A stretch of 32,488 bases of DNA from the NCBI GenBank assembly GCA_029856295.1, contig JAHQWS010000204.1:1-32488 (forward strand). Reading direction: 5' to 3'. The notes under the pieces are model-generated. The model made no database searches and was not told the origin of the DNA. It saw nothing but the letters and a program-made list of their open reading frames with translations. Below are positions 4,585-16,727 of the stretch, piece by piece. Source of the stretch: Promethearchaeia archaeon (GTDB lineage: Archaea; Asgardarchaeota; Lokiarchaeia; Sigyniarchaeales; SOKP01). The stretch's first letter is position 1, and every line of letters starts with the position of its first letter. Both the position numbers and the translations under genes were made by a program.

Positions 4585-4947
4585 ATGAGTATAGATTTAA
4601 ATAGCCTTGATGAGGAAGTAAGGAACAAAGTAATAAACCTGCAGAATCTTTCTACTACAATGGAATACTTATCACAACAGAAGATGCAAATTGAAACGAG
4701 CTTAAGAGATACAGAACTAGCGATCGAAGAACTTGAAAAAATTAACCCGGATGATGTTGTCTATAAATCAATTGGCGGAATATTAGTCAAAAGCGAAAAA
4801 AATAAGCTGCTCGATGAAAAAAAATCACTGAAAGTTACTTTAGAGATGCGTTCTAAAACTGTAACCCAGAAACTCGATAGAACTAAGAGCCAAATCGAAA
4901 CTATGAGAAATTCAATTCAGGCAGATCTTCAAAGTAAAAGTGCTTAA
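4585..4947 (+). CDS. pfdB: Prefoldin beta subunit
   Basis: Coiled coil / VYKSIGGILVK hairpin / coiled coil; 120 aa; synteny. Confidence 0.93.
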   Translation: MSIDLNSLDEEVRNKVINLQNLSTTMEYLSQQKMQIETSLRDTELAIEELEKINPDDVVYKSIGGILVKSEKNKLLDEKKSLKVTLEMRSKTVTQKLDRTKSQIETMRNSIQADLQSKSA

Positions 4948-14636: not shown

Positions 14637-15212
14637 ATGTCTGGAAAAGGGAGCAACAAGGAAGAAACGTTTTCATTCAAATGTCCTTCTTGTGAAAAGG
14701 GAGTTATAACAATTGATACCACAGATTATGATCTTCCTGATGGTGATAAGATGCTAATTATTAAATTTACTTGCGATCAATGTAATTACCATAAAAATGA
14801 TGTTATTCCAATGACTACAAGAATGGATTCTGGAATCATGACTTTAAAAATAGTGGATGAGAGTGATCTAAAATCTAAGATTTATCGTTCACCTACAGGA
14901 AAATTAGAGATTCCTGAATTGGAACTCATTGTTGAGCCTGGACCAAGAGCTGACTTTTATTACACTAATGTGGAGGGTGTACTTTTTAGATTCGAAGAAG
15001 CGGTTTCAATTTACAAAAATAATCTTGAAAAAAATGATCCCCAATTCAATGAAATTGAAGAAATCTTAGGAAATTTAAAGAAAGCAATAAACGGAAAATT
15101 AAAGTTTACATTAAAAATATCGGATCCCGGTGGAGGAAGCTATATAATTCCCCAAGATCCTTCACGCTATACTTTTCAAAAACTAAATAGTGATGAACTT
15201 GAGGAGGGTTAA
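14637..15212 (+). CDS. ZPR1 zinc-finger domain protein
   Basis: CPSC...CDQC, then IYRS, IPELELIVEPG, TNVEGVL and DPGGGSYI, the archaeal ZPR1 pattern. Confidence 0.88.
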   Translation: MSGKGSNKEETFSFKCPSCEKGVITIDTTDYDLPDGDKMLIIKFTCDQCNYHKNDVIPMTTRMDSGIMTLKIVDESDLKSKIYRSPTGKLEIPELELIVEPGPRADFYYTNVEGVLFRFEEAVSIYKNNLEKNDPQFNEIEEILGNLKKAINGKLKFTLKISDPGGGSYIIPQDPSRYTFQKLNSDELEEG

Positions 15213-15365
15213 ATTAGATTGTTATCCCCAGAACAGAATTTATTTTCATTAGCGAGACTATCAATTCTAAATTTACTAATATAGAAGAGTAGTGTGGATC
15301 AGCACAACTTTTTTAATCGAAAATGGCTTAATTAATTAGTCAAACTACCAAATTAAAAATAACTA

Positions 15366-15371
15366 AGGTGA
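15366..15371 (+). promoter_or_regulatory. Shine-Dalgarno AGGTGA of the phosphofructokinase gene
   Basis: AGGTGA-TTTTAT-ATG (15378); complementary to the archaeal 16S 3' end. Confidence 0.75.
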
Positions 15372-15377
15372 TTTTAT

Positions 15378-16587
15378 ATGACCATTAAAAAAGTTGGAAT
15401 TTTAACGGGTGGCGGAGTCATGTTAAAGGATTTCTTTAGCTGCCGTATACTGCCCGGGTTTAAACAGCGTAATATATGGCATTATGTTGAAAGCTTTCGA
15501 TGCCGGTGTTGAGTGTGTCGGTATTAAAAAAGGATGGAAAGGATTTTTAGAAAACTTGACCATTCCCCTCAATATTGCAGAACACGATGATCTCCATACT
15601 ATAGGAGGAACTCTCTTATATACCAGTAGAACCAATCCTTTTAAAGGAGTTGATTCTAAAGAAGAAAAATCAAAAGAGTTAGGAAAAAAATTTGATGATC
15701 TCGGCATTGATGCTCTAATCGCGATTGGTGGAGATTTAAAATGGTTTCCATTTTAAACTAAAAACGATACCCTCGGAGTCGCGGATGCTTTATATAAATA
15801 TGCAAATGCTAAGGTCGTTGGATGTCCAAAGACGATTGATAACGATTTAGCTGGCACCCATTATACTTTCGGATTTTGGAGTGCCGTTCAACTAGCATCA
15901 AATGCCATGGACAATCTTACAACCACGGCTAGATCCCATCAAAGAGTCTTTATTGTCGAGATAATGGGACGAGATGCCGGATTTTTAACAATGTACAGTG
16001 GAATCTCTTCAGGAGCAGATATTATTCTTATACCAGAAACACCATTCGATTTTGAGAGAGATCTTGTAGGCGTGCTAAAAAAAAGAGCAAATGCCGGTCA
16101 TAAATATCATATGATTGCGTGCTCTGAAGGGGCCTATCCCGATCAAGCATCACTTAAGCGAGACTTTAAGACTATAACCCAGGAGACCATTGATAAATTA
16201 CCAAAAGATGTCTTCGGAAATCCAATGTTACCCGCATTGAATATTTCAAACATATTAGTAAAGGAGTTAAATCTAAGAGATGATTTAAAAGAAGTTTTCA
16301 AGAAAAATGGAGTCGATTTTGAATGCCGTAGTGTAGTGCTGGGTCATACTATGAGAGCGGGAACACCCAATTCTTTTGATAGAATATTAGGACTTAGATT
16401 CGGTTTAGCAGCTATGAAACTCGTGCTTGATGGGGAATTCGGAAAAATGGTTTCCCTCCAAGGTACTGATATTACCACTTTTCCGCTTGAAGAGGGGGTA
16501 AATAAGAAATATATCAAGCCCGAAAGCGATAAATTAGAACTTAGGGATTTAATGGTTAAAATAAGGTATAAATCAAGAGAAAATTAA
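15378..16587 (+). CDS. pfp: Phosphofructokinase (PfkA family, PPi-dependent signature); three exons join(15378..15417,15449..15733,15764..16587), 382 aa
   Basis: Joined translation: MTIKKVGILTGGG-D-CPGLNSVI...GGTLLYTSR...LIAIGG-D-DTLGVA...GCPKTIDND...TFGF...SHQRVFIVEIMGRDAG...LGHTMRAG. Exons 40+285+824 = 1149 nt = 383 codons including the stop. Confidence 0.9.
15418..15448 (+). other. Putative BHB intron 1 (31 nt) in the pfk mRNA
   Basis: Central helix GCGG(15412-15)/CCGU(15443-46); bulges AG^U and AU^A; inner hairpin CA-GUUAAAG/CUUUAGC-UG; outer exon helix CGGGUG/C-GCCCG. Removal gives GGA GAC TGC (GGGDCPG). Confidence 0.85.
15734..15763 (+). other. Putative BHB intron 2 (30 nt, in-frame TAA) in the pfk mRNA
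   Basis: Perfect 10-bp inner hairpin UUUAAAAUGG/CCAUUUUAAA; bulges AG^A and AA^A; central helix GUGG/CUAA (3 pairs plus a G.A mismatch); outer helix AUUG/CGAU. Removal gives GGA GAC GAT ACC (GGDDT). Confidence 0.82.
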
Positions 16588-16727
16588 CTTGCTTTTTTTA
16601 CTTATTCTTTTTACTTTTAATAAATTTATTTTAAATACTTAATTTATTAGAAATAAATTAAGGGGAATAAAATCTGATTTTAACATACATAGTATATGGT
16701 TTTTTATAAAAACCTATTTATAGGGCT

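What the first reader, a model, noticed from the sequence alone, without database searches (positions are those of the whole stretch)
15378..16587. Candidate tRNA-type (BHB) mRNA intron system: a glycolytic gene that needs two splicing events
Seen: the pfk gene has an intact SD and ATG, all conserved motifs and no lesions except two short insertions. One shifts the frame (31 nt); the other carries an in-frame stop (30 nt). Both form bulge-helix-bulge structures with the exons, and cutting after the 2nd nt of each 3-nt bulge yields a 382-aa PFK. Established: the archaeal splicing endonuclease EndA cuts BHB motifs in pre-tRNA and pre-rRNA, RtcB ligates, and the classic protein-coding case is crenarchaeal cbf5. 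Inference: this is a multi-intron metabolic mRNA, probably in an Asgard archaeon, that pipelines would call a pseudogene. It hints at a wider hidden class of micro-introns and puts carbon metabolism under EndA dependence. I cannot check whether it has been reported.
Basis: partly seen in the sequence, partly recalled or inferred. Interest (0 to 1): 0.96.

Follow-up and report, generated by a model that had tools for sequence, protein, structure and literature searches.

The report
tRNA-type micro-introns split Asgard genes
A sugar-metabolism gene of a Loki-type Asgard archaeon is interrupted by two 30-letter inserts that look like the introns normally cut out of transfer RNAs, and the same kind of insert sits in several other core genes of its relatives.

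Summary
The pfk gene (window 15378-16587, +) is whole except for a 31-nt insert (15418-15448, shifts the frame) and a 30-nt insert (15734-15763, in-frame stop). Removing them gives a 382-aa phosphofructokinase. Both cuts fall inside an Asp codon (G|AC).

Among 88 distinct Promethearchaeota pfk loci, insert 1 is present in 23 and insert 2 in 15. All other scorable loci are intronless at exactly the same nucleotide. All 30 carriers read open after excision. dN/dS is about 0.10, the same as for intronless genes.

The bulge-helix-bulge fold is kept through compensatory changes, some between exon and intron. Synonymous codons at the flanks are fixed only in carriers. EndA is encoded in this genome. 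RtcB was not found in this 72%-complete MAG but occurs in 4 of 5 congeners.

Like inserts interrupt rnhB and a sugar-nucleotide epimerase gene here, rtcB in one congener and an aIF2-gamma-like gene in another.

No RNA data were available, so splicing is inferred, not shown. It is the same kind of element as the crenarchaeal cbf5 intron, but new in host phylum, genes and number. My literature searches found no report of it.

The parts
15365..15372 (+). Shine-Dalgarno-like AAGGTGAT, 5 nt upstream of the ATG
   Evidence: read
15378..15417 (+). pfk exon 1 (13 codons plus the G of the split Asp codon)
15418..15448 (+). micro-intron 1, 31 nt, shifts the frame; relaxed BHB
   Evidence: Present in 23 of 87 scorable distinct loci
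15412..15449 (+). BHB core of intron 1. Central helix GCGG (15412-15415, exon) pairs with CCGU (15443-15446, intron). The bulges are AG|U (15416-15418) and AU|A (15447-15449)
   Evidence: central helix paired in 100% of cells over 22 distinct sequences, with one C-G to U-A exon/intron double change
15449..15733 (+). pfk exon 2 (AC of the Asp codon, 94 codons, G of the next split Asp codon)
   Evidence: PF00365 positions 11-100
15734..15763 (+). micro-intron 2, 30 nt, in-frame TAA; canonical hBHBh' geometry
   Evidence: Present in 15 of 88 distinct loci
15724..15768 (+). BHB of intron 2. Outer helix 15724-15727 with 15765-15768. Central helix 15728-15731 with 15758-15761. Bulges AG|A (15732-15734) and AA|A (15762-15764). 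Inner hairpin 15735-15744 with 15748-15757
15764..16587 (+). pfk exon 3 (AC of the Asp codon, 273 codons, stop at 16585-16587)
   Evidence: PF00365 positions 103-276

Best explanation
The two inserts are archaeal bulge-helix-bulge (tRNA-type) introns inside a protein-coding gene.

Proposed mechanism (inferred, not observed): the pfk pre-mRNA folds so that each exon-intron boundary lies in a 3-nt bulge on either side of a 4-bp helix made of 5'-exon and intron bases. The splicing endonuclease EndA cuts after the second nucleotide of each bulge. An RtcB-type ligase joins the exons, which rebuilds the split Asp codons (G|AC). The result is the mRNA of a 382-aa phosphofructokinase.

Shown here:
- the anatomy of the inserts;
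- their exact presence or absence among orthologues;
- conservation of the fold through compensatory changes;
- purifying selection on carrier genes;
- EndA in this genome;
- further genes with the same kind of insert.
For: 1. Exact presence/absence. Of 88 distinct Promethearchaeota pfk loci, 23 of the 87 scorable at site 1 carry insert 1 (31-32 nt). 15 of 88 carry insert 2 (30 nt), and 8 carry both. All others are uninterrupted at the same nucleotide. The carriers come from many separately named assemblies.

2. All 30 carrier loci read open from start to stop after excision.

3. dN/dS of pairs in which both members carry inserts is 0.106, 0.099, 0.100 and 0.114 (dS 0.21-0.86). Intronless pairs give 0.083-0.124.

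4. Structure.
- Intron 2: 88.8% of cells paired, against 33-45% when partners are slid. The outer helix is 98.7% paired, and one inner pair switches A-U to G-C in 5 sequences.
- Intron 1: 83.8% against 35-56%. The central helix is 100% paired, including an exon C to U change matched by an intron G to A change. Five pairs carry double changes. One locus (L070) has a wholly different, perfect 9-bp inner hairpin.

5. The protein-restoring cut pair is the unique best canonical BHB geometry in 15 of 15 intron-2 carriers.

6. Synonymous codons that form the helices are fixed only in carriers.
- Site 1: GGC 22/23 against 8/64, and GAC 22/23 against 12/64.
- Site 2: ATC 14/15 against 12/73, and GAC 15/15 against 9/73.

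7. Both Asp codons are split G|AC, so only nucleotide-precise joining restores the invariant Asp.

8. Machinery. An EndA ORF with PF02778 and PF01974 lies in this genome. RtcB was found in 4 of 5 congeners. Asgard EndA is reported as the broad-specificity (alpha-beta)2 type (PMC5829648, passages).

9. The same architecture occurs elsewhere.
- rnhB: 15 of 30 loci; 88.3% paired against 27-42% slid; 8 of 11 pairs with double changes; 0 of 500 shuffles reach the score.
- rtcB of one congener: Pfam profile 1-47 | 48-426.
- An epimerase gene.
- An aIF2-gamma-like gene of another congener.

10. An independent DNA contig spans intron 2 with 15 substitutions in the exons, none in the intron, and no indel.
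Against: - No spliced RNA, circular intron or junction peptide has been seen.
- RtcB (PF01139) was not found in this genome, which is 72% complete.
- Single-sequence folds are no better than shuffles (z -1.2, -1.45).
- Intron 1 is not a strict BHB. By a gapless canonical score the true cut pair ranks first in only 2 of 23 carriers, and RNAalifold prefers a 3-bp helix with a 4-nt bulge.
- RNAalifold leaves the central helix of intron 2 unpaired. One of its four positions never pairs, and the helix is 68% paired overall.
- The sequences are related, so the shuffle statistics overstate independence.
- Fixed flanking codons could partly reflect co-inheritance of flanks with the insert rather than selection for pairing.
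Confidence: 0.85

Rival explanations
1. The inserts are removed or skipped at the RNA or translation level by some other route. One option is an endonuclease other than EndA. Another is ribosomal bypassing of the kind known from phage T4 gene 60 and yeast mitochondrial 'byp' elements (both recalled).
For: - The inserts are short hairpins of bypass-like size that carry stops.
- No RNA data tie them to EndA.
- Intron 1 departs from the strict BHB.
Against: - Both cuts split an Asp codon (G|AC), so no intact codon for the invariant Asp exists on either side. A hop over insert 1 would read Tyr-Cys-Pro instead of Asp-Cys-Pro.
- No take-off codon matching a landing codon precedes exon 2 or exon 3.
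- Covariation links exon bases with intron bases in exactly the BHB register.
- Rfam gives no ribozyme or other family here.
Confidence: 0.07
2. pfk here is a decaying pseudogene hit by two small insertions, or the inserts are assembly artefacts.
For: A gene caller would report fragments (ORFs of 44, 90 and 226 aa). The genome is a fragmented MAG of 337 contigs.
Against: - The same inserts at the same nucleotides occur in 30 distinct loci from many assemblies.
- No carrier has any other lesion.
- dN/dS is about 0.10.
- The introns change more slowly than synonymous sites. L025 and L073 differ at 2 of 61 intron positions at dS 0.31.
- Contigs from other sequencing runs cover intron 2 and most of intron 1 without indels.
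Confidence: 0.02
3. The inserts are excised from the DNA in the cells that express pfk (programmed DNA rearrangement), or the population is a mixture of alleles with and without inserts.
For: The distribution among close relatives is very patchy. One contig from the best-holding run continues past 15417 as an intronless allele.
Against: - That contig differs at 3 of 34 aligned letters and is unlike the window on both sides, so it belongs to another organism.
- No joint skipping either insert was reported in the four runs laid.
- DNA excision would not explain the RNA-type covariation or the BHB geometry.
Confidence: 0.03

Closest known systems
cbf5 pre-mRNA intron of Crenarchaeota (Desulfurococcales, Sulfolobales; Watanabe 2002, Yoshinari 2006, Yokobori 2009)
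   Same: - A BHB-like motif at the exon-intron borders of a protein-coding gene.
- Cuts between the 2nd and 3rd bulge residues.
- A dependence on the hetero-oligomeric EndA.
- The intron lies between the 1st and 2nd letter of a catalytic Asp codon.
- Gain and loss among relatives.

All of this is taken from passages of PMC2738675.
   Different: - A different phylum (Asgard) and different genes: pfk, rnhB, an epimerase, rtcB and an aIF2-gamma-like gene.
- Two introns in one gene.
- A far patchier distribution, with 18 and 14 changes on a tree of 87.
- Splicing has not yet been shown by cDNA, whereas it has for cbf5.
Non-canonical and multiple BHB introns of Asgard tRNA genes (PMC11291895; bioRxiv 10.64898/2026.10.13.758758)
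   Same: The same host group, the same presumed enzyme, a similar small size, repeated gains, and positions where the exon can form half of the motif (passages).
   Different: Those papers treat tRNA genes only. Here the exons are codons, so the motif is built from synonymous-site choices.
HAC1/XBP1 unconventional mRNA splicing (Ire1 endonuclease plus tRNA ligase/RtcB)
   Same: A short intron is cut from an mRNA by a protein endonuclease at stem-loops. The exons are joined by the tRNA ligase, and the reading frame changes as a result. This is recalled; only the title of a reference on RtcB and HAC1 was seen, in the reference list shown.
   Different: A different endonuclease and a different recognition motif. 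It is stress-regulated and is not a BHB.
Inteins and homing introns at conserved catalytic motifs
   Same: The insertion sites are nucleotide-binding or catalytic motifs: GGGD and GGDD in PFK, DEAGRG in RNase HII, GGVGYD in RtcB and GHVDHGKT in the GTPase. The distribution is patchy.
   Different: These inserts are 29-32 nt, encode no homing enzyme, and have no known route of mobility.

Membership tests
Archaeal BHB (tRNA-type) intron cut by EndA and joined by RtcB | [quoted passage not shown] | tested here: met
   Intron 2 has exact geometry, though one of the four central positions never pairs. Intron 1 has a central helix pairable in 100% of cells, but RNAalifold prefers 3 bp with a 4-nt 3' bulge. 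It is therefore relaxed, not strict.
Archaeal BHB (tRNA-type) intron cut by EndA and joined by RtcB | Cutting after the 2nd nucleotide of each bulge yields the functional junction | tested here: met
   Both cuts restore the Asp codon and the frame. For intron 2 this cut pair is the unique best BHB geometry in 15 of 15 carriers. For intron 1 it ranks first in only 2 of 23 by the gapless score.
Archaeal BHB (tRNA-type) intron cut by EndA and joined by RtcB | Flanking helices: h (exon with exon) and h' (intron with intron) | tested here: inconclusive
   Intron 2: h is 98.7% paired and h' 92%. Intron 1: h' carries a bulged nt, and h pairs (93.6%) only if offset by one nt. That places it among the HBh'-like relaxed forms, which the literature says need the broad-specificity enzyme.
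Archaeal BHB (tRNA-type) intron cut by EndA and joined by RtcB | Structure kept by compensatory substitutions | tested here: met
   The covariation score was reached by 0 of 500 shuffles in all three alignments. Slid controls pair in 27-56% of cells, against 84-89% observed. The sequences are related, so these are not probabilities.
Archaeal BHB (tRNA-type) intron cut by EndA and joined by RtcB | Host encodes the splicing endonuclease | tested here: met
   PF01974 match at G000 C6:9932-10156. The 200-aa ORF carries PF02778 and PF01974. A beta subunit was not looked for.
Archaeal BHB (tRNA-type) intron cut by EndA and joined by RtcB | Host encodes the RtcB ligase | tested here: inconclusive
   Not found in G000, which is 72% complete. 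Found in 4 of 5 congeners searched.
Archaeal BHB (tRNA-type) intron cut by EndA and joined by RtcB | Spliced RNA, or a circular or linear excised intron, observed | not testable with these tools
   No RNA run holds the stretch. The runs laid were DNA contigs only.
Phosphofructokinase, PF00365 | Full-length match to the family profile with the conserved motifs | tested here: met
   Exon 2 matches profile 11-100 (6.5e-20) and exon 3 matches 103-276 (3.4e-54). The best NCBIfam model is TIGR02483 PFK_mixed. The GGDD and PKTIDND motifs suggest a PPi-dependent enzyme. The rule that Asp104 and Lys124 mark PPi-PFK is recalled and was not tested.

The most novel reading that the evidence does not exclude
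Loki-type Asgard archaea carry a genome-wide, fast-turning-over population of 29-32-nt BHB micro-introns in core protein genes. These introns are gained and lost again and again at the same nucleotide. They persist mainly inside Gly-rich catalytic or nucleotide-binding motifs, an intein-like site bias. They even interrupt rtcB, the ligase needed to splice them. On this reading they behave as mobile or selfish elements that make expression of central metabolism, replication and translation genes depend on the tRNA-splicing machinery, in the closest prokaryotic relatives of eukaryotes.
Probability: 0.35. Interest if true: 0.9.

Novelty: new member of a known kind. Interest (0 to 1): 0.72.

Why it matters
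According to the passages I read, cbf5 is the only archaeal protein gene whose BHB intron has been confirmed. Others had only been predicted.

Here at least five further genes in one Asgard genus carry such introns, and pfk carries two. Three practical consequences follow.

- **Annotation.** Pipelines will call these genes pseudogenes or fragments. That distorts metabolic reconstructions of Asgard MAGs. A 'missing' PFK or RtcB may simply be split.
- **A system for intron turnover.** The many carrier and non-carrier pairs form a natural system for asking how archaeal introns enter and leave genes. A recent preprint on Asgard tRNA introns calls this an open question.
- **Eukaryote origins.** Interrupted protein genes that need RNA splicing exist in the lineage nearest to eukaryotes, by a mechanism unrelated to the spliceosome.

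All of this rests on comparative evidence until spliced RNA is seen.

Tried and rejected
- **RNA evidence.** The look-up of sequencing runs listed no RNA holder, so expression and splicing could not be tested. The four runs laid were DNA contigs.
- **Motif-only genome scan.** I scanned G000 for a BHB core plus an excision that joins two open frames of at least 50 codons. It gave no excess over a mirrored-motif control. There were about 231,000 real and about 235,000 mirror first-pass hits, and at score 15 or above 51 real and 57 mirror. Adjacent genes swamp the signal, so the scan says nothing either way.
- **Comparative scan, false leads.** The scan against 1.59 Mb of a congener also gave hits that I rejected. 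C316 near 1550 is a 1-nt shift at a run of G, not an insert. Hits on C102, C106, C26, C58, C12 and C101 lie in N-terminal or non-coding stretches or antisense frames. Three pairs of adjacent ORFs (on C65, C108 and C43) differed from the congener by 1-2 nt only. The scan cannot see inserts near a gene's start, and it missed pfk intron 1. It also cannot see inserts shared by both genomes, so the counts are lower bounds.
- **Epimerase insert.** I first placed its splice sites one nucleotide off and judged the BHB poor. The two other carriers fixed the sites. The single-sequence MFE fold of that region still shows another structure.
- **Rfam.** A search on 15200-16700 gave only a chance miRNA hit below threshold.
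- **tRNA comparison.** ARAGORN found only 25 tRNA genes in G000, 6 with introns. That is too few for a useful comparison of tRNA and mRNA BHB motifs.
- **Literature.** Eight searches found no report of BHB introns in Asgard protein genes or in pfk. The library lacks most subscription journals.
Full report
**What is in the window**

The plus strand from 15378 to 16587 holds a phosphofructokinase gene in three pieces. An SD-like AAGGTGAT lies at 15365-15372 and the ATG at 15378.

The frame runs for 13 codons and then meets a 31-nt insert (15418-15448). Read through, that insert ends the frame after 44 aa. A second insert of 30 nt (15734-15763) is in frame but carries TAA.

The translated exons match Pfam PF00365 at positions 11-100 (exon 2) and 103-276 (exon 3) of 277. 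Nothing of the family profile is missing. NCBIfam ranks the mixed-type PFK model first. With both inserts removed the frame is open for 382 aa from the ATG. Both cuts fall after the first letter of an Asp codon (G|AC), in the motifs GGGD and GGDD.

**Who carries it**

The window is a whole contig of a 3.24-Mb MAG with 337 contigs, 72% complete. A search of 60 relatives found pfk in 56 of them, and in the window's own genome, 57 of 61 in all. The nearest named records in the genome collection are titled Promethearchaeota, Promethearchaeia or other Asgard names. The guess of an Asgard host is therefore supported.

**Presence and absence**

After 13 duplicates were removed, 88 distinct pfk loci remained.
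- Insert 1 (31 or 32 nt) is present in 23 of the 87 loci that can be scored at that site. One locus reads N there.
- Insert 2 (always 30 nt) is present in 15 of 88.
- Eight loci carry both, and 30 carry at least one.
- In every other scorable locus the codons run on without a gap at exactly the same nucleotide.
- All 30 carriers give a complete open frame after excision and have no other lesion.

A contig from a separate sequencing study spans insert 2. It has 15 substitutions in the flanking exons, none in the insert, and no indel. Another contig covers insert 1 from its third base onward without a difference. Assembly artefact and pseudogene decay are thus excluded for practical purposes.

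**Selection**

Pairwise dN/dS (NG86) for pairs in which both genes carry inserts is 0.106, 0.099, 0.100 and 0.114, at dS 0.21-0.86. Intronless pairs give 0.083-0.124.

The inserts themselves change slowly. L025 and L073 differ at 2 of 61 insert positions while dS is 0.31.

**Structure**

In a BHB motif each strand has its bulge 3' of a 4-bp central helix. The 5' strand of that helix is exon and its partner is the 3' part of the intron. Cuts fall between the 2nd and 3rd bulge residues (passages of PMC2738675 and of the 2026 preprint).

*Insert 2* fits this exactly.
- A 5-bp outer helix is 98.7% paired over 15 sequences.
- A central helix of four positions pairs at three of them.
- There are two 3-nt bulges and an inner hairpin of up to 10 bp.
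- Overall 88.8% of cells pair, against 33-45% when partners are slid by 1-3 columns.
- One hairpin pair switches between A-U (10 sequences) and G-C (5).
- Among about 286 alternative cut pairs within 8 nt, the protein-restoring pair is the single best canonical geometry in 15 of 15 carriers.

RNAalifold predicts the outer and inner helices but leaves the weak central helix open.

*Insert 1* is a relaxed form.
- The central helix is pairable in 100% of cells. This includes a locus in which the exon glycine codon ends in U instead of C and the intron has A instead of G.
- The two outermost inner pairs switch C-G to U-A and A-U to U-A.
- Overall 83.8% of cells pair, against 35-56% slid.
- The inner helix has a bulged base in most carriers, and the outer helix pairs only when offset by one nucleotide.
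- RNAfold and RNAalifold instead draw a 3-bp central helix, a 4-nt 3' bulge and a 7-bp outer helix.
- By my gapless score the true cut pair is first in only 2 of 23 carriers.
- One carrier (L070) has an unrelated, perfect 9-bp hairpin in the same frame of helices.

Single-sequence energies are not significant, so the case rests on comparison.

**Exon flanks**

The synonymous positions that would form the helices are nearly fixed in carriers and free in non-carriers.
- Site 1: GGC 22/23 against 8/64, GGA 23/23 against 31/64, GAC 22/23 against 12/64.
- Site 2: ATC 14/15 against 12/73, GGT 13/15 against 18/73, GGA 15/15 against 27/73, GAC 15/15 against 9/73.

This is what selection for exon-intron pairing predicts. 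Co-inheritance of the flanks with the insert could contribute, and relatives are not independent.

**Machinery**

A 200-aa ORF with the N-terminal and catalytic domains of the tRNA-intron endonuclease lies on another contig of this genome. RtcB was not found in this incomplete genome but is present in 4 of 5 congeners. Kaneta et al. 2018 report that Asgard archaea have the (alpha-beta)2 EndA with the L1 loop. That form accepts relaxed BHB motifs (passages).

**A wider class**

In one congener the rtcB match itself was split. The break is a 29-nt insert inside GGVGY|D, with a perfect 4-bp central helix, 3-nt bulges and an 8-bp hairpin. The Pfam RtcB profile is divided 1-47 | 48-426.

I then compared G000 with 1.59 Mb of a congener by translated search in both directions. 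This recovered pfk insert 2 and found the following.
- A 30-nt insert with a stop in rnhB (contig C197, 4261-4290, minus strand, inside DEAGR|G).
- A 31-nt frameshifting insert in an NAD-dependent epimerase/dehydratase gene (C204, 1538-1568).
- In the congener, a 29-nt insert in the P-loop (GHVDHG|KTT) of an aIF2-gamma-like GTPase.

Pfam coverage is continuous across each break where the exons are long enough to score.

The rnhB insert is present in 15 of 30 related loci. Its BHB is 88.3% paired against 27-42% slid. Eight of 11 pairs carry changes on both sides, including exon-intron pairs of the central helix, and 0 of 500 shuffles reach the observed scores.

The epimerase insert occurs in 3 of the 40 genomes with a match. 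In one further genome the match runs off a contig end and cannot be scored. Its hairpin shows compensatory changes.

All six introns share the central helix, a 5' bulge cut after its 2nd base, a 3' bulge of the form A-N|A, and an A/U-rich hairpin.

A motif-only genome scan showed no enrichment over a mirrored control and is uninformative.

**Evolution**

On a quick ML tree of 87 spliced PFK proteins, parsimony needs 18 changes for insert 1 and 14 for insert 2. That is close to what shuffled labels give. Well-supported branches alone force at least 8 changes for the class carrying insert 1 only.

Sister genes with branch lengths of 0.01-0.03 differ in carriage, for example L069 and L093, or L066 and L072. 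This is a gene tree, unrooted, with many weak forks. It shows patchiness, not the direction of change.

All insertion sites seen are Gly-rich catalytic or nucleotide-binding motifs, as for cbf5. This recalls inteins and homing introns, but no route of mobility is known.

**Rivals**

Ribosomal bypass is unlikely. The Asp codons are split, no take-off codon matches a landing codon, and the covariation is of RNA-pairing type in the BHB register. Rfam finds no ribozyme. DNA-level excision has no support in the contigs laid.

**Known or new**

Passages of PMC2738675, PMC5829648 and PMC6379350 name cbf5 as the confirmed archaeal pre-mRNA case and mention only predictions for other genes. The two papers on Asgard introns that I read in passages treat tRNA genes only. 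Eight full-text searches found no report of BHB introns in Asgard protein genes. The library is incomplete and I did not look at supplementary files.

I file this as a new member of a known kind. The mechanism is the cbf5 one; the host phylum, the genes, the multiplicity and the turnover are new. The statement that the GGDD and K-TIDND motifs mark a PPi-dependent PFK is recalled, not tested.

**Verdict**

Splicing itself is still to be shown. My confidence in the BHB-intron reading is 0.85.

Noticed in passing
L113 (G005:C13) 659-687: The RNA ligase gene rtcB of a congener is itself split by a 29-nt canonical BHB insert inside the GGVGYD motif. The ligase thought to join the exons would then need splicing of its own mRNA.
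   Followed up: partly
L218 (G001:C4) about 4842-4870, minus strand: An aIF2-gamma-like GTPase carries an N-terminal HHH_5 domain, an unusual fusion. A 29-nt BHB-type insert sits in its P-loop. The G000 orthologue (C172:303-1904) is uninterrupted.
   Followed up: partly
window 15640-15650 region; alignment: Many relatives have 30 extra in-frame nucleotides (10 Lys/Glu-rich residues) inside pfk exon 2. The window and some others lack them. This looks like an ordinary loop indel and not an intron: it has no stop and is translated in the open frames.
   Followed up: no
L005, L006, L007, L025, L026, L054 start regions: Several pfk orthologues have ATA, ACG or another non-standard triplet where the others have the ATG start. 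The true starts were not worked out.
   Followed up: no
G000 contig C308, 6269-8171: Fourteen intron-free tRNA genes lie in one tight array. ARAGORN finds only 25 tRNA genes in the whole MAG, 6 of them with introns. The array may belong to a mobile element or to contamination, and many host tRNAs are probably missed because of non-canonical introns.
   Followed up: no
G000 contig C316, about 1550-1575: A uroporphyrinogen-decarboxylase-like gene changes frame at a run of G. This is a 1-nt shift, either a sequencing error or a real frameshift, and not an intron.
   Followed up: partly
window 15384-15417, run X1: The same sediment sample holds a related organism whose pfk is intronless at site 1. 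Carriers and non-carriers therefore coexist.
   Followed up: no
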